The notes under the pieces were generated by a model. That model did not search any database. It worked only from the letters and a program-made list of their open reading frames with translations, and was not told where the DNA came from. Both the position numbers and the translations under genes were made by a program. A stretch of 64,000 nucleotides of DNA from Clostridia bacterium (GTDB taxonomy: Bacteria; Bacillota; Clostridia; TANB77; CAG-508), in assembly GCA_900754285.1 (NCBI GenBank), contig CAAECB010000034.1, positions 3,458-67,457 of the forward strand, given 5' to 3'. Shown piece by piece: positions 2,677-26,199 of this stretch; within the stretch, counting starts at the first letter, position 1; every line of letters begins with the position of its first letter.

Positions 2677-4935
2677 ATGAAAAAAAATACAAGTAGAAAA
2701 GATAAAAAAGTTTTAAATATAAATAATGAATTCACTTCACAAAATTTTATACATACTAAAAAATTAAAAGTAATATTTCTAGTTTCAATTATTATTTTTG
2801 TTTTATTAGTTTCAAGACTTGCTGTAATCCAATTTGTTGATGGTACATATTTAAAAGAAAAAGCTTACTCACAACAAACAATTAACCAAATTATTAGCCC
2901 TAAACGTGGAAATATATATGATTCAACTGGAAAAGTTTTAGCAAGTAGTGTAGCAGTTGACACTATAACAATTAATCCTCAAAAAATAGTTGATGCTAAT
3001 GATGATAGCAAAACTAACGAACTTAAAGAAAAGGTAGCAAAAGGACTATCAGAAATATTTGAATTAGACTACAACGAAACATTAGAAAAAGTAAAAAGCA
3101 ATTCACAAGTTGAAACAATTGCTAAAAAAATAGACCAATCTAAAGTTGAAACTCTTCAAAAATGGATGAAAGAAAATAAAATATCTGTTGGAATAAACAT
3201 TGATGAAGATTCAAAACGTTATTACCCTTATGACACAGTTCTATCTAACGTATTAGGTTTTTGTGGAACAGACAATTCTGGAATAGTTGGACTAGAATCT
3301 ACATACAATTCTGTTTTACAAGGTACTCCAGGAAAAATTGTAAGTTCAAAAGGTAGTGACCAAGAAGAAATTCCAAATGCAGAAGAAACTTATATTTCTG
3401 CTGAAAACGGTAGTGACCTAACATTAACTATAGATTATAATATTCAAACAATTGTAGAAGAATATCTTTCTCAAGCTTGTGTCAACTTAAATGCCAAAGG
3501 TGGCGGTACTTGTATTGCAATGAATCCTAAAACAGGAAAAATTTTAGCAATGGCAGACTATCCGAACTACAATCTAAATACACCATTTACTCCAAATGAA
3601 TCACTTTCCTCTACATATGATTCACTTTCTACAGAAGAAAAAGGAAATGCTTTACATTCAATGTGGAGAAACAAATGTGTAGCAGATTTATATGAACCTG
3701 GTTCTGTATTCAAATTAATAACCGCATCAGTCGCATTAGAAGAGCACATTACAACACCAGATATTAGTGGGGATTTTAACTGTAAAGGATATGAACAAGT
3801 TGCAGATAAAAAAATCAGTTGTTGGAGTACTACTCCACATGGTTCTTTATCACTAAGACAAGCTCTAGAAAAATCTTGTAACCCTGCATTAATGCAATTA
3901 GGTAAAAGAATTGGTGTTTCTACATTATATAATTATTATAGAGCTTATGGATTATTTGAAACAACAGGCAGCAATTTATATGGAGAATCTAATTCCCTAT
4001 TTACTAAAGAATCTAGTGTAGCAGATGTTGAGCTTGCTACCATGTCTTTTGGGCAAAGGCTTAATATCACCCCTTTGCAGATGATTACAGCAATATCTGC
4101 AATTGCTAATGATGGTATCTTAATGAAACCAATGATTGTTGATAAAATTACTAATGCAGATACAGGTGCTGTTACTACTGTAGAACCAACTCAAGTTCGC
4201 CAAGTTCTTTCTAAAGAAACAGCAAGTACTATGAAAGATTTAATGAAATCTGTAGTTGTAGATGGTACTGGTTACCGTGGTGCTGTTACAGGATACTCTG
4301 TAGGTGGAAAAACTGGTACTTCTGAACCTCCAGATGGAAAAGAAAGTGAAGGTTATGTTGCATCATTTGCTGCAATATCACCTGTAGAAGATACTCAAAT
4401 CGTTTTACTTGTATGCTTCTATGGATTAAATAAGGGACAACAAGGTGGACAAGTTGCTGCTCCAGTTGCTTCACAAATGTTGACAAAAATCTTACCATAT
4501 ATGGGTGTTCCTTCTGACACAACAGATACAGGTTCATCTGATTTAACACAAATCTCTGATGTAAGAAACAAAACATTTACAGAAGCAGAAAAAGTACTAA
4601 CTGCTGCTGGATTTAAAGTAAAATCTGTAACTAGTCAAAATAAAAATACAACCACCGTTTCTGACCAAGTTCCTAAACCTGGTGTATCTTTATCCAAAAA
4701 TTCTATAGTTATGCTTTATGATAATACAACAACAGCAAGAACTTCAGTTACAGTTCCTGACTTAAATTTAAAAACTTCTGCACAAGCTATAAGTGCATTA
4801 CACAATTTAAATTTAAATGTTTCTATTGATGGTTCTGGTACTGTTGTCTCACAAGATCCTCCAGCAAATTCTAAAGTTGAAGAAGGTACTGTTATAAAAA
4901 TAACACTTAAAAACGGAAGTAAATCAGCACATTAA
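2677..4935 (+). CDS. Class B penicillin-binding protein / peptidoglycan D,D-transpeptidase with C-terminal PASTA domains (SpoVD/PBP2B-like)
   Basis: Has the SxxK (GSVFKLIT), SxN (EKSCNPA) and KTG (GGKTGTS) motifs. It also has an N-terminal TM anchor and a 752-aa length with a PASTA-like tail. Confidence 0.85.
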   Translation: MKKNTSRKDKKVLNINNEFTSQNFIHTKKLKVIFLVSIIIFVLLVSRLAVIQFVDGTYLKEKAYSQQTINQIISPKRGNIYDSTGKVLASSVAVDTITINPQKIVDANDDSKTNELKEKVAKGLSEIFELDYNETLEKVKSNSQVETIAKKIDQSKVETLQKWMKENKISVGINIDEDSKRYYPYDTVLSNVLGFCGTDNSGIVGLESTYNSVLQGTPGKIVSSKGSDQEEIPNAEETYISAENGSDLTLTIDYNIQTIVEEYLSQACVNLNAKGGGTCIAMNPKTGKILAMADYPNYNLNTPFTPNESLSSTYDSLSTEEKGNALHSMWRNKCVADLYEPGSVFKLITASVALEEHITTPDISGDFNCKGYEQVADKKISCWSTTPHGSLSLRQALEKSCNPALMQLGKRIGVSTLYNYYRAYGLFETTGSNLYGESNSLFTKESSVADVELATMSFGQRLNITPLQMITAISAIANDGILMKPMIVDKITNADTGAVTTVEPTQVRQVLSKETASTMKDLMKSVVVDGTGYRGAVTGYSVGGKTGTSEPPDGKESEGYVASFAAISPVEDTQIVLLVCFYGLNKGQQGGQVAAPVASQMLTKILPYMGVPSDTTDTGSSDLTQISDVRNKTFTEAEKVLTAAGFKVKSVTSQNKNTTTVSDQVPKPGVSLSKNSIVMLYDNTTTARTSVTVPDLNLKTSAQAISALHNLNLNVSIDGSGTVVSQDPPANSKVEEGTVIKITLKNGSKSAH

Positions 4936-9161: not shown

Positions 9162-10412
9162 ATGGAAAAAGTTTTAGGAATAATTACAGAATATAATCCA
9201 TTCCACAATGGACATTTATATCACTTAAATGAAAGTAAAAAACAAACAAATTGCCAATACTCAATATGTGTTATGAGTGGCAATTTTACGCAAAGAGGAG
9301 CAACCTCAATAATAGACAAATGGTCAAAAGCAAAAATGGCAATTCAAAATGGTATAGATTTAATAATAGAATTACCTACTTTATATGCAATTTCAAGTGC
9401 CGAAAATTTTGCATATGGAGCAATTAAAATTCTAGATTCTTTAAATATTGTAACAGATATAAGTTTTGGAACAGAATCAAATAACATTGATTTATTAGAT
9501 AATATTGCTCATTTATTATTAACTGAACCTGAAGAATTTAAAACATTTCTTAATGAAGAATTAAACAAAGGTTCTTCTTTTCCTAAAGCACGTGAAATCG
9601 CTTGTGCAAAATACTTACAAAAAGACTCTCCAGAAAACCTTTTACTATATAATAATATTTTATCCTCACCAAATAATATTTTAGGAATTGAATACTTAAA
9701 AGCTTTAAAAAAGCTAAATAGCAATATTACTCCTCATGTAATTAATAGAATTGAATCTGAACATAATAGCCTAGATATAAAAAATAATATTGCAAGTAGC
9801 AGTGCTATTCGCAATATCATTTCTGAAAATCAAAACTTAGAAATATTAAAAAAACTGATGCCAGAAAACAGCTACACTATGCTTATGGAAAATTTTAAAA
9901 ATGGTCATTTTGTTCCAGATATTTCATGTTTTGAAAAGGAAATTTTTTATAGATTACGTCAAATGTCTACACAAGATATTGCTAATCTTGCAGAAGTAAA
10001 TGAGGGCTTAGAATACAAAATTAAAACTGCAGCTAATTCATGCAACAATTTAAATACATTTTTTGATATTGTAAAATCTAAACGTTTTACACGTACACGC
10101 CTACAACGAATACTACTTTACTCCCTTCTCAACATAACAAAAGAGGATATGCTTTTGTCTAAAAATGCTTCACCTTATATTCATGTATTAGGATTTAATA
10201 CTAATGGACAAAACCTATTATCTCAAATATCAAAAGCTAATCCTAAATTAAAAATTATAACTTCTGTTAAAAAATTCGAAAATACTTGCACAGACCTTAG
10301 CCTAAAAAACATTCTTGAAAAAGATATTTTAGCTACTAATGTATATACCCTTGCATATACTAAAAATTCTTTTGCTAATTTAGATTATACTACACATTTA
10401 ATTAATATATAA
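9162..10412 (+). CDS. tmcAL: tRNA(Met) cytidine acetate ligase TmcAL (YlbM/DUF795 nucleotidyltransferase)
   Basis: GIITEYNPFHNGHLYHL HIGH-like motif at about 416 aa. Confidence 0.7.
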   Translation: MEKVLGIITEYNPFHNGHLYHLNESKKQTNCQYSICVMSGNFTQRGATSIIDKWSKAKMAIQNGIDLIIELPTLYAISSAENFAYGAIKILDSLNIVTDISFGTESNNIDLLDNIAHLLLTEPEEFKTFLNEELNKGSSFPKAREIACAKYLQKDSPENLLLYNNILSSPNNILGIEYLKALKKLNSNITPHVINRIESEHNSLDIKNNIASSSAIRNIISENQNLEILKKLMPENSYTMLMENFKNGHFVPDISCFEKEIFYRLRQMSTQDIANLAEVNEGLEYKIKTAANSCNNLNTFFDIVKSKRFTRTRLQRILLYSLLNITKEDMLLSKNASPYIHVLGFNTNGQNLLSQISKANPKLKIITSVKKFENTCTDLSLKNILEKDILATNVYTLAYTKNSFANLDYTTHLINI

Positions 10413-19562: not shown

Positions 19563-20528
19563 TTAATTTTTACTATCTGCTTTTTCAATTGTAATTTTTC
19601 CTAATACTCCATTTTTAAATTCATCTAATAAGATTTTTGCTGTTTTTTCATCATCTATATTTCCACCTGAAATTATACACCCTCTTTTTCTTCCTATTTC
19701 TTGCATAATCTCATAAATGTTTTGATTTTCTGGTTGGAAATCTTGTCCCATAACTTCTTTTATGTATTCCTCTTTTAATTGATATCTTTGGCATATTTTT
19801 TCTGGATATTCTTCTAATAGATATTTTGTTAATTCATATGCTACTTCTATTCTATCTAATACATCTTCTTTTATAGAACCTGTAAACGCTAAATGCAACG
19901 CTACCTCATTGTTTTCAAATTTTGGCCATAATACACCTGGAGTATCTAATAATTCTACTTTTTCATTTATTCGTATCCATTGTTTTTGCTTTGTTACACC
20001 TGGTTTGTTCCCAACTCCTGCTAAAGTTCTTTTGCTTATTCTGTTTATAAAAGATGATTTTCCTACATTTGGTATTCCTAATATCATCGCTCTAATTTTT
20101 CTTCCTGTTCTTCCTTTTGAATCCATTTCTTCTTTTTTATCTTTCATGACCTCTTCTATTTTGCTTACTACTTGTCCTATTCCAGTTCCAGATTGCGAAT
20201 CTGTTAATACTGCTGGTATTCCTTTTTTTGCAAAATATGATAACCATCTTTGATTTTCTTTTTCTTCTGATAAATCACATTTGTTTAATATTACTATTTT
20301 TTTCTTTCCTTTTGTTATCTCCTCTATGTCTGGATTTCTACTTGCTATTGGTATCCTTGCATCTAATAATTCTATTACTATATCTATTAGTTTTAAGTCT
20401 TCTTTTATTTGCTTTCTTGTTTTCGCCATATGTCCTGGATACCAGTTAATTCCGACTGATGGAAAACTTTTTGTACTATCATCTTTTTTCTTTTCTGCTC
20501 TAATTTTTCTTTTTTGATACATATCCAT
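19563..20528 (-). CDS. rbgA: Ribosome biogenesis GTPase A (YlqF)
   Basis: Circularly permuted GTPase motifs (NKCDL, GIPNVGKSS, DTPG). Its first 87 bp are duplicated at 21589..21676. Confidence 0.85.
   Translation of the reverse strand: MDMYQKRKIRAEKKKDDSTKSFPSVGINWYPGHMAKTRKQIKEDLKLIDIVIELLDARIPIASRNPDIEEITKGKKKIVILNKCDLSEEKENQRWLSYFAKKGIPAVLTDSQSGTGIGQVVSKIEEVMKDKKEEMDSKGRTGRKIRAMILGIPNVGKSSFINRISKRTLAGVGNKPGVTKQKQWIRINEKVELLDTPGVLWPKFENNEVALHLAFTGSIKEDVLDRIEVAYELTKYLLEEYPEKICQRYQLKEEYIKEVMGQDFQPENQNIYEIMQEIGRKRGCIISGGNIDDEKTAKILLDEFKNGVLGKITIEKADSKN
20441..20527. repeat. 87-bp direct repeat copy A (5' end of rbgA; candidate att core)
   Basis: Identical except for 2 mismatches to 21589..21676. 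Confidence 0.85.
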
Positions 20529-20540
20529 TATTTATCACTT

Positions 20541-21586
20541 CCTTATTCATCACTATTATTTTCATTTAAATATTTATTATAAAATTCATCCATTGAAGAA
20601 ATATATTTTCGATCTTGTATAACTCTAAACTTTTCATACTCTTTTTCTGCTTTTTCTACTGCTTCTTTATGAGATATACTGCCACTATTATTTAATATTT
20701 TTTTCTTCTAAACTTTAATAAATCATCAGTTGCATCTATCCAATCCTTCATTGTCATTACATATCTTTGTTTTGCTTCATCCTCTGCAAATATCAAAAAT
20801 AAATTTGTTAAATTTTTTAGATTATTCATTTCTTCTTCGTTTAAATAATTTTTTGCAATAACTACATCATATTTATATATTAAACCATCAGGAGAATTTT
20901 TCCAATTAGTTAGTCCCACATGTTCTTTATCTGAGTTTGCTCTACTATATATTAATTCGGCAGCAGTAATGTCCACTTATAGCATAATGCAACTTATTTT
21001 GAACTATTTTAAAGAAGGTATAGGCGTCTTCTGATTTTGGATTGTAATCTGCTGCTGTTGCAATAAATAAATCAGTGATTTTTTGATATGCCATTCTTTC
21101 ACTTACTCTAATTGTTTTAATACGTTCTAATAATTCATCAAAATATTTTGCATCATATTTATTTCCACTTATAAAACGTTCGTCATTTAATGCAAAGCCC
21201 TTTGTCATATATTCTTTTAATATTTTTGTTGCCCATATTCTAAATTCTGTTGCTTTTTTAGAATTAATTCTATAACCCACAGCAATTATAGCATCTAAAC
21301 TATAAATAGTTGTGTTATAGTTTTTTCCGTCATCGGCAGTTAACGAGCATTTCTCGGTAACTGATTTTTTATCTAACTCATTATCTTCAAATATATGTTT
21401 CAAGTGTAAACTTATATTGTCTGTAGAACATTCAAAAACTTTTGACATTCCTTTTTGTGATAACCATAAAGTTTCATCTTTATAAATAGCATCTACTACA
21501 ATATTACCTGCACTATTTTTATATATAATTAATTTATTATCTTCCATCAATAATCTCCTTTCCTTTAGTTTTTCATGATTCCTCAC
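20541..21586 (-). pseudogene. RhuM-family (virulence protein RhuM / ORF6N-like) gene copy with at least two frameshifts
   Basis: ORFs 20945..21586 and 20692..20976 plus a third-frame C-terminus (..KFRVIQDRKYISSMDEF..) align colinearly to the intact paralog at 21712..22740. Confidence 0.65.
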
Positions 21587-21588
21587 TT

Positions 21589-21676
21589 ACCAGTTGATTC
21601 CGACTGATGGAAAACTTTTTGGACTATCATCTTTTTTCTTTTCTGCTCTAATTTTTCTTTTTTGATACATATCCAT
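21589..21676. repeat. 87-bp direct repeat copy B (truncated rbgA 5' fragment MDMYQKRKIRAEKKKDDSPKSFPSVGINW*)
   Basis: Near-identical to 20441..20527. Its reading frame stops immediately after the repeat. Confidence 0.85.
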
Positions 21677-21711
21677 ATTTTTCACTTTTTTTACAACTTG
21701 TAAGTTGTCGC

Positions 21712-22740
21712 TCAGTTGCTGTTAAGATTTTTTGTTTCTGTTACTAACTCATCAAAGTCTGAAATATAATTTTTGTCTTGTATAATTCTATATTTTTTGT
21801 ACTCATCTAAAGCCAATTTATCTGCTATTTCTCTTTTTATTTTGCCATTATCTTTTAAAATGTTATATTCATTTATTTTCAAAAATACTTCTAATTTTTC
21901 TTTCCACTCTTGCATTGAAATAATCTTACCTAGTTTTACTTGTCGTTCTGCATAATCAAGATACATCGATACTAAATTATTTAGCTCTATAATTTCTTCT
22001 TGTGAAAGATAGTTTTTAGCTATTGTTACATCTGTTTCAAGTATTTTTCCATCTGGTGCATTTTTCCAAGTTGTTAGTCCCATATTATCTTTTTTACTAT
22101 CTACTCTATTATAAATTATTTCAGGAGCAGTCATTCCAGTAATAGCAAAATGTAACTTGTTCTGAACATTTTTGTAAAATTCTTGTGTTGTTTCACTATT
22201 TTTATCATAATCATAGCTACATTCTTTGTATATATCAGTTATTTTTTGATAAAATCTTCTTTCACTTGCTCTAATTTCTTTTATCTTAACTAATAACTCA
22301 TCAAAGTAATCTTTTCCAAATTTAGGTCCATTTTTTAGCATTTCACTATTAACAATAAAACCTTTTTTTATGTATTCCTTCAATGTTTTGGTAGCCCAAA
22401 TTCTAAAATCTGTTGCTTCTTTTGAATTTACTCTATAACCAACTGCTATAATTGCATCTAAACTGTAAAAATTTGTGTTATATTTTTTTCCATCCGAAGC
22501 AGTTACTCTAATTTTTTGAGTAACTGAATCTTGATTTAATTCTTTTGTTTTAAAGATATTCTGTAAATGATATGTTATATTATTTTCTGCTACATTAAAT
22601 AATTTTGACATTGACTTTTGTGTTAACCAAAAATCTTCTTCATTATATAAAACTTCAACAGATATATTTTCGTTATTTTGGCTTTGATATATGATTAAAT
22701 CTTTTAAATTTTCTATATTATTCAATAATAAGCACCTCAC
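21712..22740 (-). CDS. RhuM-family virulence/anti-restriction-like protein (intact)
   Basis: WLTQKSMSKLF...LDAIIAVGYRVNSKEATDFRIWATKTLKEY is the RhuM/ORF6N signature. Confidence 0.8.
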   Translation of the reverse strand: MRCLLLNNIENLKDLIIYQSQNNENISVEVLYNEEDFWLTQKSMSKLFNVAENNITYHLQNIFKTKELNQDSVTQKIRVTASDGKKYNTNFYSLDAIIAVGYRVNSKEATDFRIWATKTLKEYIKKGFIVNSEMLKNGPKFGKDYFDELLVKIKEIRASERRFYQKITDIYKECSYDYDKNSETTQEFYKNVQNKLHFAITGMTAPEIIYNRVDSKKDNMGLTTWKNAPDGKILETDVTIAKNYLSQEEIIELNNLVSMYLDYAERQVKLGKIISMQEWKEKLEVFLKINEYNILKDNGKIKREIADKLALDEYKKYRIIQDKNYISDFDELVTETKNLNSN

Positions 22741-22810
22741 ATCTTTTTTTGAGAACTATTGTTTGTATTATATAATAAAATAATTACTATGTCAATATTT
22801 TTAGTTGATT

Positions 22811-23810
22811 TCACGTTATATATTTCCTATGTGAGTTTTTCACATTATTTTGATTTACCATTGCGTATTCCATCGTTGTATCTATTTTTATATGACCTAA
22901 TAACTTATGTACTTGTTCTATTGGCATCCCTTTATCAATAGCCATAGTCGCCATTGTTATTCTAAATTTATATGGATGTACTTTATTTATATTTGCTTTT
23001 TTTCCTAGATTTCTAATAGCAATCTCAATTCCTGATATTCCTAATCTGTTATATGGTTTTATTAATGATACAAATAATGCTTCATTATCATCTGTTCTAG
23101 TTTCCAAATATTTTTCTATATACATTTTGCTCTTTGCACTAAAATAAACTTCTCTTTCACTGTTTCCTTTATCCAAAACAATACAGCTTCTTTCTTGAAA
23201 ATTCATATCTGATATATTTAATCTCGTAATTTCTCCTACTCTCATACCAGTTGAAATTAATAGTTCTAATATTGCTAAATCCCTTACATTTGAACAAGTA
23301 TCTCTTAACTTTTCCAAATTTCCATCTGTTAATGTTTCTTTTACTCTTCTAGTAGTCTTTACTTTATGAATTCTTCTTACTGGACTTTTTACAATATAGT
23401 CCTCATTTTCCAACCAAGCAAAGAAACTTGATAAAGTTCTTCTCATATTATCTATCGTTACCATACCTGCATTTGAATTATTTTTATAATCTGCTAAATA
23501 GTTTCTTAATATTTCAGTAGTAATTTCATTTACTGGAAGATTGACAGCATCAAACATTTTATTTATATTATCTTTATAGTAATTTAAAGTTCTATTTGAG
23601 CAACCTTCAATTTCTTTAGATGATATAAATTTATTTTATATATTAGTATTATTCTTTAGTATTTCCTGTTTTTTAATTGGTTCTATCCTTTCAATTTGAT
23701 AATTTAAACATATTTCTGTAAGTATTTCTTTTAATTTTATTCTTTGGTTATTGTCTAAAAAATCTTCTGTTGTATCAATTACTTTTCCTACAAATAATTC
23801 TCTCATGACA
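22811..23810 (-). CDS. Tyrosine-type site-specific recombinase/integrase (phage integrase family), N-terminal region in a different frame (frameshift near 23620-23650 in an A/T run)
   Basis: Catalytic-domain ORF 22811..23557 (..HPYKFRITMATMAIDKG..LLGH...TMEY). The upstream frame encodes MRELFVGKVIDTTEDF...NKFISSKEIEGCSNRTLNYYKDNINK, contiguous with it. Confidence 0.7.
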
Positions 23811-24117
23811 ATTACCTCCTTACATTTTTATTTGATAATTTGCAATATATAGAACTCTATCTATATTATACAATATTTAATTGACATAATAAAAGATAAG
23901 CATATTCTATATACCCATCTAAATGTTTATATTTTCGTTCAAATTTCAAAATCAATCTCAGCACCAAATTACTATTTTATTTAAAATTTTATCATTTTTT
24001 GCCTGTAAAATGTAAAAAGAAATAAGATTGAAATTCTTATACATATTTTATCAAAATGTTGATATATAGTCAATATTTTGATAAAATCAAAACAAAAAGA
24101 TAAAAAGGAGACTTTAA

Positions 24118-25252
24118 ATGAAACTTAATATATTAAAAAATGAATACATATCTTCAATAAAGCCACTTGAACCAAATAAATTTCACTCTTCCATTACTGT
24201 ATCATCTGCTTTAAGAGCAAATTTTTCTGCTGGCTGGAATGACACCCCACCATATTGTAACGAAAACTCAGGTTATACACTAAATATACCAATCTTATAT
24301 AAAAACTCTTTTCCAATAAATGTAAAAATAGAAAAAATAAACGCACCTAAAATCATACTATCTAATAGTTATTCAGAAATTGAAATAACAAATATGTTAG
24401 AATTAATTAATTGCCAATCTCCAAACATTCCTTTTGCACTTCACAAATCTGCAATTTTAGCATCAGGACTTATACCTTTTAATCTTAACTTTAATTTACA
24501 ACATTTTTTCAAAAAAAATTCTGGATTTAAATTAAGTACCAATGTAATTAATATTCCCGTTGGTTCTCGGTCTTGGTACTAGTAGTATTTTACTATATTC
24601 TTGCCTAAAAGCAATTTTTATGTTTTGCGGTCAAAGCTATACTGATTTAGATTTATATCATATGACTACTTGTGCAGAACAAATTATGAATACTGGTGGA
24701 GGTTATCAAGATGCAATTGGTTCATCTAATAATGGATTTAAATTGATTCATTTTAGTCCTGGAATATTACCAGGAATTTATTGTGAATCTATTCATATAA
24801 AAAGTACTATTCAAAAAGAACTAAAAAATAAAATCATTTTTATCTATACAGGCAAAACTCGTCTAGCAAAAGATTTACTTTCTTCTATTATGGAAAATTA
24901 TGTTAATAATGATATAAATACAATACATACATTAAAAAATATTGGGCAAACCGCTATAGATATGAAAAATAATCTTGTTAATGAAGATTTAAAATCTTTT
25001 GGCTCAAACATGATAAAAAGTTTTGATTTAAACATAAAATTAAATAAAAACTTTACTAATAATACAATAAATAATATTATAAAATTTTCTGCTAATTATT
25101 TAGATGGTTACATGCTATCTGGTGCTGGAAATGGCGGCTTTCTTACTTTTTTATTAAATGACTCAATCTCAAAAGAAGCCTTTTCTAATATTTTTGTTTC
25201 AAAATTTAGTAATTCTGATATAAAAATCTATGATTTTAATATTAAGTTTTAA
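24118..25252 (+). pseudogene. L-fucokinase-type GHMP kinase domain (Fkp/FUK C-terminal half) with a frameshift splitting the P-x-GSGLGSS motif
   Basis: AGWNDTPPYCNENSGYTLNIPI is the fucokinase signature. The motif reads ..IPVGS|LGLGTSSILL.. across the frame change. SGAGNGGFLTF is the GHMP motif III. Confidence 0.55.
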
Positions 25253-25307: not shown

Positions 25308-26199
25308 TTATATTTTCATTTTTGTTCTTTCTTTTGCTATTTTCAAAAACTCCTCTGTAGTTCCATAATGTATAAATTTTCCATCTTCCAGACTTTCTAT
25401 TTTTAAATTTTTATCATTCAACCTATTCCATATTTCAGTTCTTACCTTTAATAATTCTTTTGATATTTCCACTTCTGCCTTTTGGTACAAATACTTATTA
25501 AAATCAACTTCTAAACATAATGGATTTAATAAATCTGTATACAAGTTTATTATAACATCATTAGAAAATTCTATTTTTTTTAAATCTTTTAAAGTATTTT
25601 TATTAAAGTAAATCATGCCTGTATCTATATTAACTTGATTTTGTTCATTCACAGCTCTTTTTCTTTTTAATACTTCTTCTGTTTCTTTTTGTAACGCTTC
25701 TTTTAGAATTTTTTCTTTATTTGTAACAAATACACCATGTCTTTTTCCTAGTTCTACATCAGCTAAAACTGAAAACGCTGTATTTTCTTTAATCTCATTC
25801 TTATTTGTTTTTTTATACATAGTTGTACAATCTCCAGAAACAATCAATATACCTGGTAACATTCTTTTACCTATTGACATGGTCTCTTCAATTATTTCAT
25901 CAAACACTATTTTATTTCTTCCATTAAAAGTTGGTATACATATCTTTCCTTTTTTGGCATATAAAGGCATTCTCTGACACTTTCCTGCAGAATTTATTAA
26001 TAAAACTTTTTTATTTTCTATTTCTTTTTGTTTTATTATATTTAATAATGCTCCGTCCAGAACCTACTTTTTTCTTTTCTATTACTATTCTGTATTCTGT
26101 GTTTTCTTGTAAGTTTCGTTTATATAATTTATTTTTTAAATAATCTTTTTGAAATTGATCTGCTACTGTTATTATTATATAATCAAATACCTTTGGCAT
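25308..26199 (-). pseudogene. Fucokinase-family N-terminal (nucleotidyltransferase-like) domain, frameshifted, in opposite orientation to the GHMP half
   Basis: DYIIITVADQFQKDYLKNKL and MLPGILIVSGDCTTMY resemble the Fucokinase (PF07959-type) region. It is split between ORFs 26011..26199 and 25308..25970. Confidence 0.45.

What the first reader, a model, noticed from the sequence alone, without database searches (positions are those of the whole stretch)
20441..24117. Integrase/RhuM integrative element remnant inserted at the 5' end of rbgA with an 87-bp target duplication
The first 87 bp of rbgA (coding MDMYQKRKIRAEKKKDDS..GINW) occur twice as direct repeats (20441-20527 and 21589-21676, 2 mismatches). 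Copy B encodes a truncated N-terminus followed immediately by a stop. Between the repeats lies a multiply frameshifted RhuM-family gene. Beyond copy B lie an intact RhuM paralog and a tyrosine integrase whose N-terminal region is itself frameshifted. This looks like a reconstituted att site for an element that targets the rbgA 5' end. Either two tandem or nested insertions occurred, or one element carries an internal att scar. rbgA-5' targeting is unusual, since most integrases target tRNA/tmRNA 3' ends. No third copy of the repeat marks the distal end in this window.
Basis: seen in the sequence. Interest (0 to 1): 0.6.

Follow-up and report, generated by a model that had tools for sequence, protein, structure and literature searches.

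The report
Mobile-element scars at rbgA start
The start of the essential ribosome-assembly gene rbgA is duplicated because small mobile DNA cassettes have inserted there one after another; this is a known kind of insertion site, it recurs across dozens of uncultured gut Clostridia, and the nearby integrase is probably not what caused the duplication.

Summary
The first 89 nt of rbgA (20440-20528) recur at 21588-21676 with 87/89 identity. They flank a RhuM pseudogene with two frameshifts. An intact RhuM paralog and a tyrosine recombinase lie beyond; the recombinase carries an in-frame TAA, not a frameshift.

The repeats are att-type scars of site-specific insertion at the Trp codon of the conserved NW|YPGHM motif. 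This is the same position used by streptococcal Tn5253, so rbgA-5' targeting is already known.

In about 80 related species this interval is an insertion hotspot. Truncated 5' copies all end at TGG(TA). The 89-nt module is 92-99% identical between species whose rbgA bodies are 68-76% identical. The RhuM cassette is 89-96% identical across ten or more species.

Large serine recombinases, or their C-terminal remnants, abut rbgA in 16 loci. The window's tyrosine integrase is absent from all the other species' loci.

That integrase belongs to a separate 2.28-kb element with terminal inverted repeats (21698-23974, Int+rhuM2). It sits 21 nt upstream of copy B's start codon. Near-identical elements occur at unrelated sites.

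All conspecific assemblies retrieved carry the island, some with intact genes. It is an old, decaying tandem accretion. Interest is moderate.

The parts
19563..20528 (-). rbgA (ylqF), intact, 321 aa. Residues 1-26 are an N-terminal extension that lies outside the family model.
   Evidence: TIGR03596 348.5 bits against a cut-off of 208, with the match starting at residue 27. Pfam MMR_HSR1.
20440..20528 (-). Copy A: an 89-nt rbgA 5' module (ATG..AACTGGTA) fused in frame to the rbgA body. This is the gene-proximal att-type junction (attR-like).
   Evidence: It is 92-97% identical to modules in species whose next 300 nt of rbgA are only 68-76% identical.
20529..21587 (.). The 1059-bp segment between the repeats: a RhuM cassette with no recombinase gene (CIME-like).
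   Evidence: Window 21595-20540 is 89-96% nt identical to rhuM cassettes next to rbgA in L005, L014, L020, L025, L034, L050, L056, L058, L067 and L076.
20543..21547 (-). rhuM1 pseudogene with two frameshifts. Its stop lies 14 nt before the rbgA ATG, and the rbgA RBS follows directly.
   Evidence: Pfam PF13310 on both fragments. Three-frame translation. Intact 334-aa allele in conspecific L097-L102 and L105.
21588..21676 (-). Copy B: a displaced rbgA 5' module of 29 codons, closed by a TAA created at the junction (TGG TAA). This is the distal att-type junction (attL-like).
   Evidence: It is 89/89 identical to L056:6224 and 88/89 to L025, L040 and L055.
21677..21697 (-). A 21-nt stretch, GTTGTAAAAAAAGTGAAAAAT: the decayed rbgA RBS region, and the right-hand flank of the Tyr-Int element insertion.
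   Evidence: Homologous to GTTGTAAAAAGGAAGTGATTAAA found upstream of many rbgA copies.
21698..23974 (-). A 2277-bp tyrosine-recombinase element (Int + rhuM2) bounded by imperfect 18-bp terminal inverted repeats. Left end TAGTAATTTGGTGCTGAG at 23974-23957. Right end CTGAGCGACAACTTACAA at 21715-21698.
   Evidence: The same ends delimit 4.77-kb and 3.5-4.9-kb Int elements that are over 99.7% identical between loci with different flanks. The Int block itself is 90-95% identical to these.
21712..22740 (-). rhuM2, intact. It is 52% aa identical to rhuM1.
   Evidence: PF13310 E = 1.2e-102. PADLOC candidate PDC-S05 E = 1e-138. Identity.
22767..22795 (-). Consensus sigma-70-like promoter (TTGACA-17-TATAAT) in front of rhuM2.
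   Evidence: 12/12 match. This is a consensus match only.
22811..23806 (-). XerA-type tyrosine recombinase gene, inactivated by an in-frame TAA at codon 57 (23636-23638).
   Evidence: Conspecific L097 has TTA and an intact 331-aa protein. The homolog P0004 scores 243 bits on NF040815 against a cut-off of 220.
23975..24038 (-). Left-end leader (hairpin plus T-run, then a TTTACA..TGATAAAAT promoter-like site). In other species this leader follows truncated rbgA copies.
   Evidence: 81-82% identical over 68 nt to L007:765-832 and L016:664-731. Alignment A1.
24046..24086 (.). A 41-bp palindrome, TTTTATCAAAATATTGA-CTATATA-TCAACATTTTGATAAAA, at the position where other loci have the att junction. 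It is either a degenerate distal att relic or simply two overlapping divergent promoters.
   Evidence: Alignment. Unique in the window and the loci. Promoter-like matches on both strands. Unresolved.

Best explanation
The two 89-nt repeats are the junctions left by site-specific insertion of a small, horizontally mobile RhuM cassette into the first codons of rbgA.

The cassette carries its own ribosome-binding site, start codon and 29-codon N-terminal leader for rbgA. Recombination occurs at the Trp codon of the conserved ..INW|YPGHM.. motif (core AACTGG|TA). This fuses the cassette-borne leader (copy A) to the rbgA body. The previously resident leader (copy B) is pushed upstream, where it ends in a TAA created at the junction. 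The newest insert lies next to the gene, so repeated events build a tandem array (accretion).

The cassette has no recombinase. The enzyme was most likely a large serine recombinase, either supplied in trans or lost by deletion. Relatives of such enzymes sit immediately upstream of rbgA in many related species.

The tyrosine recombinase and rhuM2 form a second, independent element with terminal inverted repeats. It inserted 21 nt upstream of the start codon of what is now copy B.

The composite is old. It is present in every conspecific assembly retrieved and is decaying in this lineage: a nonsense codon in Int and two frameshifts in rhuM1. The order of events is not resolved, nor whether the copyB-rhuM1-copyA unit arrived as one piece. 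L056 carries the same unit.

Shown: the repeats, the exact junction, the horizontal transfer of the module and the cassette, the ends of the Int element, and the association of serine recombinases with rbgA in other species.
Inferred: which enzyme acted here, and the order of events.
For: 1. The junction is exact and recurrent.
   - Truncated leader copies upstream of rbgA, in the same orientation, occur in L007, L015, L016, L018, L023, L030, L051, L052, L056, L067, L068, L071 and L072. Nearly all end at or within a few bases of AACTGG(TA). L045, L048 and L072:1584 are shorter, further-truncated copies.
   - Flanking pairs are 98-100% identical in L030, L056, L067 and L072.
2. The identity breakpoint is sharp. 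The 89-nt module is 92-99% identical between species, against 68-76% for the next 300 nt of rbgA.
3. The process is site-specific, not homologous.
   - L038 and L076 share an LSR-c79-'MSNEKSCASTSINW' right end at 92.7% identity.
   - That homology stops exactly at AACTGGT.
   - In L076 it is followed by the rhuM cassette and an MDMYQ-type rbgA. Only about 11 nt are shared between the partners.
4. The RhuM cassette is a transferable unit: 89-96% nt identity in ten or more species whose RbgA is 56-72% identical.
5. Serine recombinases associate with the site.
   - Resolvase+Recombinase+Zn_ribbon proteins, or their C-terminal remnants, end 21-167 bp before the rbgA ATG in 15 loci. A sixteenth (L038) has the gene 558 bp upstream, with c79 in between.
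   - The same is seen in L113, L114 and L115.
   - L051 is a complete 3.5-kb unit: truncated leader, KilA-N, two ORFs, LSR, then rbgA with a new leader.
6. The reconstructed attP of the window's cassette has 16/25 dyad symmetry centred on T|GG, with shuffle p about 2e-4. Other end classes give 13-14/25.
7. The Int element has discrete ends that are shared with elements elsewhere.
8. Precedent: Tn5253 integrates at the same rbgA position with an 83-84-bp duplication that restores the CDS (PMC6079316, PMC8571831).
Against: - No serine recombinase gene lies in this 64-kb window, and none is linked to a rhuM cassette in any locus seen. The trans-mobilisation step is therefore pure inference.
- No empty site or circular form was found. 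Every conspecific contig read across the site carries the island.
- The known rbgA-5' integrases (Tn5252/Tn5253) are tyrosine enzymes, and a tyrosine recombinase is present here.
- The dyad symmetry is modest. It is absent from the attR and attB reconstructions when scored without gaps (7/25).
- The data are almost all MAGs and metagenome contigs. Many of these break at this locus.
Confidence: 0.6

Rival explanations
1. The tyrosine integrase is an rbgA-5'-specific integrase of the Tn5253 type. It inserted an Int+RhuM element, once or twice, and produced the 89-bp att duplication.
For: Tyrosine integrases specific for the rbgA 5' end exist in streptococcal ICEs. They give an 83-84-bp duplication at the same codon position. 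An integrase lies 1.1 kb from copy B, on the same strand.
Against: - The integrase sits in an element with its own inverted-repeat ends. Its right end is 21 nt upstream of copy B's ATG, not at TGG.
- Elements with 89-97% identical integrases occupy unrelated sites, none next to rbgA.
- tblastn found no copy of it upstream of rbgA in any of the other species' loci L003-L082.
- No tyrosine-recombinase family ranks among the 25 commonest Pfam families in 150 ORFs upstream of rbgA.
- There is no Xis gene.
- The rhuM1 cassette spreads without the integrase.
Confidence: 0.15
2. No site-specific enzyme is needed. The RhuM cassette, flanked by two copies of the conserved 89-nt module, circularises and re-enters genomes by RecA-dependent (Campbell-type) recombination within the module. 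The module acts as portable homology.
For: The cassette has no recombinase. The flanking modules are 89 nt long and over 90% identical between species. The island is fixed and shows no sign of ongoing excision.
Against: - In L076 the distal partner is a different leader (MSNEK..INW) that shares only about 11 nt with the cassette's module, yet the junction is at the same base.
- Four unrelated left-end classes all start right after TGG(TA).
- The attP has dyad symmetry.
- Serine recombinases are adjacent to rbgA in other species.
Confidence: 0.15
3. A local tandem duplication of an [rbgA-5' + rhuM] unit by unequal crossing-over, followed by divergence.
For: The two units have similar lengths (start-to-start spacing 1148 and 1163 nt) and the same gene order.
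Against: - The leader repeats are 98% identical, but the two rhuM genes are only about 74% nt and 52% aa identical.
- rhuM1 is 89-96% identical to cassettes in other species. rhuM2 is at best 73% identical to any of them.
- rhuM2 lies inside the Int element's inverted repeats.
Confidence: 0.03
4. An assembly artefact that duplicated the rbgA start.
For: Many MAG contigs break at this locus.
Against: The same architecture, with both copies, appears in every conspecific contig that spans the site. These come from several studies and assemblers, and they carry allelic differences between the copies.
Confidence: 0.01

Closest known systems
Tn5253/Tn5252-family ICEs integrated in the 5' end of rbgA (Streptococcus, Enterococcus)
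   Same: - Same target gene.
- Same position: Tn5253's attB contains only the first 20 nt of the CDS, so integration falls in the first few codons. I infer, rather than read from the paper, that this lies at the conserved ..QW|F.. motif, matching ..NW|Y.. here.
- The duplication is similar in size (83-84 bp against 89 bp) and restores the CDS.
- The gene-proximal copy is the element's own (attR = attTn).
- The N-terminus can change, as in E. faecalis (PMC6079316, PMC8571831, PMC4701971).
   Different: [quoted passage not shown]
- Here the inserts are 1-3.5 kb and non-conjugative. The cassette has no recombinase, and related loci carry large serine recombinases.
- The duplicated stretch there is mostly non-coding (63 nt upstream plus 20 nt of CDS). 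Here it is 89 nt of coding leader that adds 26 residues to RbgA.
CIMEs and tandem accretion at att sites (for example ICESt1/ICESt3 in S. thermophilus). Recalled from my own knowledge; not read here.
   Same: Att-flanked segments that lack integration and conjugation genes lie in tandem with other elements at one att site, with the newest insert adjacent to the target gene.
   Different: No autonomous partner element is present in this window. The target is a 5' end rather than a 3' end. The cis-mobilisation that defines a CIME was not tested.
SCC elements (CcrAB/CcrC large serine recombinases at rlmH/orfX). Biology recalled from my own knowledge.
   Same: Serine-recombinase islands insert at the end of a conserved housekeeping gene. 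They form tandem composites and leave recombinase-less pseudo-elements bounded by direct repeats.
   Different: They use the 3' end of rlmH, not a 5' end. The L054 recombinase scores far below the Ccr cut-offs (79 against 900 bits), so it is not a Ccr.
Integrons
   Same: A stack of single-gene cassettes in one orientation, each with a repeated boundary sequence. A tyrosine recombinase lies at the distal end in this window.
   Different: The recombinase fails the integron-integrase model (81 against 265 bits). Boundaries are either rbgA leader copies or 18-bp inverted repeats, not attC sites. Cassettes carry their own promoters.
Xer-like tyrosine-recombinase transposons such as TnPZ/XerT. Recalled from my own knowledge; relevant to the Int+rhuM2 element only.
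   Same: A small Xer-family recombinase moves an element with short terminal repeats into varied AT-rich sites.
   Different: No relationship was tested. The ends here would form a 30-bp palindrome when joined, and the target preference is unknown.

Membership tests
rbgA-5'-specific integrative elements (Tn5253 type) | Insertion within the first codons of rbgA, downstream of a conserved core that ends at the Trp codon | tested here: met
   The junction lies at AACTGG|TA in the window and in 13 or more other loci. The Tn5253 attB contains only the first 20 nt of the CDS.
rbgA-5'-specific integrative elements (Tn5253 type) | Direct repeats flank the insert and restore the rbgA CDS | tested here: met
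   89-nt repeats, 87/89 identical, and rbgA is intact.
rbgA-5'-specific integrative elements (Tn5253 type) | Tyrosine Int plus Xis at the end of the element, acting on these att sites | tested here: not met
   No recombinase lies between the repeats. The nearby Int is inside its own inverted-repeat-bounded element, and its relatives are found elsewhere in genomes. No Xis is present.
rbgA-5'-specific integrative elements (Tn5253 type) | Conjugation module (ICE) | tested here: not met
   ORFs between ham1 and rbgA are fkp-like and GHMP pseudogenes, Int and two rhuM genes.
rbgA-5'-specific integrative elements (Tn5253 type) | Excision to a circular form with restoration of attB | not testable with these tools
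   Every conspecific contig read across the site is occupied. No reads are available.
Large-serine-recombinase integrative element | A Resolvase+Recombinase+Zn-ribbon gene next to the att site | tested here: not met
   Not met in this window: there is no tblastn hit. Met in related loci L032, L038, L051, L054, L077 and L113, and remnants are present in 10 more.
Large-serine-recombinase integrative element | An attP of about 50 bp with imperfect dyad symmetry around a central crossover dinucleotide | tested here: inconclusive
   The reconstructed attP gives 16/25 symmetric positions centred on T|GG (p about 2e-4). attB and attR give 7/25 when scored without gaps.
Large-serine-recombinase integrative element | Recombinase-dependent attP x attB recombination | not testable with these tools
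   This needs an assay.
CIME-like recombinase-less att-flanked element | Bounded by two att copies in direct orientation, with no integration or transfer genes | tested here: met
   The segment 20529-21587 holds only the rhuM pseudogene.
CIME-like recombinase-less att-flanked element | Mobilised by a related autonomous element that uses the same att | not testable with these tools
   Autonomous LSR elements use the same junction in other species. Mobilisation itself is untested.
Integron | IntI-type integrase (TIGR02249) | tested here: not met
   81 bits against a cut-off of 265. The best model is the XerA type, NF040815, at 243 against 220.
RhuM family (PF13310) | Match above the Pfam gathering score | tested here: met
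   rhuM2 scores 343 bits against 33.7. The rhuM1 fragments score 180 and 95 bits.
RbgA/YlqF (TIGR03596) | Equivalog score above the cut-off | tested here: met
   348.5 against 208.2, covering residues 27-315.

The most novel reading that the evidence does not exclude
In this clade of small-genome gut Clostridia, the start of the essential gene rbgA may serve as a cassette-acquisition platform comparable to an integron.
- It would be driven by large serine recombinases, with a second XerA-like tyrosine system acting 20 nt further upstream.
- Single-gene cassettes with their own promoters and defence-type or phage-type functions (RhuM, KilA-N, Bro-N/GNAT, NUDIX, UDG, Schlafen) are stacked in one orientation.
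- Recombinase-less cassettes would be mobilised in trans.
- Each capture replaces the promoter, RBS and N-terminal 26-29 residues of RbgA.
- Because the cassette then supplies the start of an essential gene, imprecise loss would be lethal, and the cassette is protected from deletion.
Probability: 0.25. Interest if true: 0.7.

Novelty: new variant of a known kind. Interest (0 to 1): 0.42.

Why it matters
Site-specific insertion into the 5' end of an essential gene obliges the element to supply that gene's promoter, start codon and N-terminus. Here this has gone as far as a portable 26-29-residue leader on RbgA that is exchanged between species.

If serine recombinases are responsible, they would form a family of integrases with a highly conserved, essential-gene attB that is present across Firmicutes. 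That could be useful as a genome-engineering landing site in uncultured gut Clostridia.

The locus is also a reservoir of candidate defence genes. In practice it is a recurrent cause of contig breaks and of mis-called rbgA starts in MAGs.

For this window itself the element is a fixed, decaying relic and has little consequence.

Tried and rejected
- Third copy. Searches for each half of the repeat at up to 3 mismatches found only the two copies.
- The 24046-24086 palindrome as a distal att relic. It aligns positionally, but it is equally well explained as two overlapping divergent promoters. Left unresolved.
- An inversion splitting an fkp gene next to the integrase. Rejected: the GHMP-kinase part has its own RBS and start codon and is simply a convergent gene.
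- Empty site within the species.
  - The 90% cluster of RbgA has only 2 members.
  - Look-ups of the conspecific variants P0123 and P0124 returned only occupied sites.
  - Look-ups of the 93-96% relatives mostly returned contigs that break at rbgA.
- attP in phages. A viral-contig scan for the leader found only two integrated right ends, with LSR genes or a remnant, and no free attP.
- Literature on serine recombinases that target rbgA. None was found in the held library.
- Tandem-duplication origin. Rejected on the identity contrast.
- Integron membership of the integrase. Rejected.
- Only the first 150 of 224 upstream ORFs were scanned against Pfam.

Full report
**What is in the window.** All features described here lie on the minus strand.
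- rbgA (19563-20528) is intact. It scores 348 bits on TIGR03596, with the match starting at residue 27, so residues 1-26 are an extension.
- Its first 89 nt (20440-20528, copy A) recur at 21588-21676 (copy B) with 87/89 identity. Shuffled sequence gives no matches, and there is no third copy at up to 3 mismatches per half.
- Copy B encodes 29 residues and stops at a TAA formed at the junction (TGG TAA).
- Between the copies lies a RhuM gene with two frameshifts.
- Upstream of copy B lie an intact RhuM paralog (21712-22740) and a tyrosine recombinase (22811-23806). The recombinase is interrupted by one in-frame TAA at codon 57, not by a frameshift.
- The window matches GCA_902474675.1, an uncultured human-gut Clostridium sp.. 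The lesions recur in independent assemblies.

**The repeat is not a local duplication.** The leader copies are 98% identical, while rhuM1 and rhuM2 are about 74% nt and 52% aa identical.

**Comparative picture.** A scan of one genome per species with RbgA returned 80 loci from uncultured Clostridia, with RbgA 55-94% identical to the window's.
- The backbone is GGDEF, IreB, RuvX, DUF1292, a 158-aa membrane protein, optionally Ham1, then rbgA and mrnC.
- The interval in front of rbgA ranges from about 100 bp to more than 8 kb, with unrelated content even between close relatives.
- Many contigs end within about 200 bp of the rbgA start, as expected for a repeat-rich site.
- The leader MDMYQKRK..INW is nearly invariant in species whose RbgA bodies are only 55-70% identical. 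About 20 species have short leaders such as MNINWFPGHM.
- At the nucleotide level the 89-nt module is 92-99% identical between species, against 68-76% for the next 300 nt. Copy B equals L056:6224 at 89/89.
- RbgA proteins 93-96% identical to the window's carry quite different leaders.
- The leader is therefore exchanged horizontally, with a sharp breakpoint at the Trp codon.

**Arrays and the junction.**
- Truncated leader copies, all in the gene's orientation and nearly all ending at or within a few bases of AACTGG(TA), lie upstream of rbgA in 13 or more species. Some species have two.
- Where the proximal and distal copies belong to one event they are 98-100% identical (L030, L056, L067, L072).
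- Four unrelated classes of sequence begin right after the core.
- The clearest case is L038 against L076. A serine-recombinase element whose right end encodes MSNEKSCASTSINW is 92.7% identical in both. The homology stops exactly at AACTGGT.
- L038 continues into rbgA. L076 continues into a rhuM cassette, followed by an MDMYQ-type rbgA. The two rbgA bodies are only 69.5% identical.
- Only about 11 nt are shared between the partners, so the insertion is site-specific rather than homologous. The newest insert lies next to the gene.

**The RhuM cassette.**
- Window 21595-20540 is 89-96% identical to rhuM cassettes adjacent to rbgA in ten or more species.
- None of them carries a recombinase.
- In the L076-type allele the rhuM stop and the rbgA start overlap (TAATG). 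In the window the rhuM1 stop is 14 nt from the rbgA ATG.
- The window's cassette lacks the roughly 130-nt leader that, in L056, L067 and L076, sits between two att-like half-sites.
- RhuM is a PADLOC defence candidate (PDC-S05). It has been proposed as a toxin domain in restriction-modification neighbourhoods (PMC3710099).

**Which recombinase.**
- Proteins with Resolvase, Recombinase and Zn-ribbon domains, or their C-terminal remnants, end 21-167 bp before the rbgA ATG on the same strand in 15 loci. A sixteenth (L038) has the gene 558 bp upstream, with c79 in between.
- The same is seen in two IMG/VR contigs and in a relative whose RbgA is 93% identical (L115).
- L051 is a complete 3.5-kb unit: truncated leader, KilA-N, two ORFs, a 405-aa serine recombinase, then rbgA with a new leader.
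- Among 150 ORFs upstream of rbgA, the commonest families are GNAT, RhuM, Resolvase/Recombinase, NUDIX, KilA-N, UDG and Bro-N. No tyrosine-recombinase family appears among the 25 listed.
- The reconstructed attP of the window's cassette shows 16/25 dyad symmetry centred on T|GG (p about 2e-4).
- The window itself has no serine recombinase. Its role here is inferred.

**The tyrosine recombinase.**
- Intact 331-aa homologs, 89-97% identical, are abundant. None of those examined is near rbgA.
- They head blocks of 3.5-4.9 kb (Int-NUDIX-DegT-NDK, or Int-rSAM-TehB with or without cupin-DUF6512). These blocks are over 99.7% identical between loci with different flanks.
- The blocks are bounded by about 18-bp inverted repeats: TAGTAAGTTATCGCTGAG ... 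CTCAGCGACAACTTACAA.
- The window has the same ends at 23974-23957 and 21715-21698. They enclose Int and rhuM2 (2277 bp). The right end lies 21 nt upstream of copy B's ATG.
- Int-less cassettes with the same ends sit in front of rbgA in L007 and L056. Left-end motifs followed by a TTACAA-type right flank occur in L023, L033, L040 and L055.
- The enzyme is of the XerA type (243 bits against a cut-off of 220) and not an integron integrase (81 against 265).
- It is therefore a second, independent mobile system, and not the source of the 89-nt duplication.

**Age.**
- Every conspecific contig read across the site carries the same island. It is 98.4% identical over 3.8 kb in L097.
- Some strains have an intact Int (TTA at codon 57) and an intact 334-aa rhuM1.
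- No empty site was seen. The window's lineage shows decay.

**Comparison with known systems.**
- Tn5253-family ICEs integrate at an 83-bp attB made of 63 nt upstream plus the first 20 nt of rbgA.
- They duplicate it, restore the CDS, and can alter the N-terminus.
- The target and the logic are therefore known.
- What differs here: small non-conjugative inserts, recombinase-less cassettes, the association with serine recombinases, and a long portable coding leader.

**Verdict.** This is a new variant of a known kind, of moderate interest.

Noticed in passing
window 21698-23974; L083:7828-12597, L086:558-5327, L089:7830-11344, L056:8589-9977, L007:135-604: A family of small elements bounded by about 18-bp inverted repeats (TAGTAAGTT.TCGCTGAG ... 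CTCAGCGACAA.TTACAA). Some carry a XerA-type tyrosine recombinase plus 1-4 cargo genes on the same strand. Others carry no recombinase. Joined ends would form a 30-bp palindrome. The same element occurs at different sites at over 99.7% identity.
   Followed up: partly
L056:10085-10100, L060:~190-205, L062:~9990-10005, L082:~4085-4100: Four species share an extra C (TGGTA.CCACGG.CATATG in place of CCAGG.CATATG). It puts the leader out of frame with the rbgA body, which could then start only at the internal ATG of ..GHM.. and would lack the conserved W(Y/F)PGH. It may be a real variant, a recoding signal or a recurrent error.
   Followed up: no
L007:2040-2200 and L072:2551-2700: A leader copy is joined, right after AACTGGTACCA, to the interior of an amidase-like gene resembling gatA (..LGSDTGGSIREPAAFCG..). 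This could be a secondary insertion site or a deletion junction.
   Followed up: no
window 24118-25252 (+) and 25308-26199 (-): Two convergent pseudogenes: a GHMP-kinase-like gene split into 154- and 230-aa ORFs, and a fucose-pyrophosphorylase-like gene split into 62- and 220-aa ORFs. The same splits occur in every conspecific contig read across this region. The genes are absent from the closest other species (L044).
   Followed up: partly
window 24046-24086: A near-perfect 17-7-17 palindrome between the GHMP gene and the integrase. It contains promoter-like TTGA..-17-TAAAAT sites on both strands and is unique in the window and in all fetched loci.
   Followed up: partly
L076:8815-8990, L056:6300-6440, L067:8020-8160, compared with window 21548-21587: In other species the rhuM cassette's left end holds two att-like half-sites (..TGGTAAGTGGGGAGTCATGAAAAAAC and ..TTGATAAGTGTATGACTTATGAAAAAC). 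They flank a roughly 130-nt leader with a hairpin and a promoter-like site. The window has a single half-site and no leader.
   Followed up: partly
L032:5921-9671; L113:2798-6053: Two or three serine recombinase genes lie in tandem immediately upstream of rbgA. This recalls the recombinase triplets described for some streptococcal ICEs (PMC4701971).
   Followed up: no
L083:6155-16232 and L092:9806-11726: An island that ends with a 518-aa serine recombinase next to a fragment of a ZIP-transporter gene, with the other ZIP part upstream in L083. This suggests a second gene-5'/3'-targeting serine integrase in the same community.
   Followed up: no
L003, L017, L021, L026, L059, L116-L120 (contig ends): Many MAG and metagenome contigs terminate within about 200 bp of the rbgA start. 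The repeated leader and the cassettes appear to break short-read assemblies at this locus.
   Followed up: partly
L027, L061, L082, L115 (upstream of rbgA): One island type carries a two-component system plus an ABC/FtsX transporter, followed by a serine-recombinase C-terminal remnant. It occurs in species with RbgA 58-93% identical to the window's.
   Followed up: no
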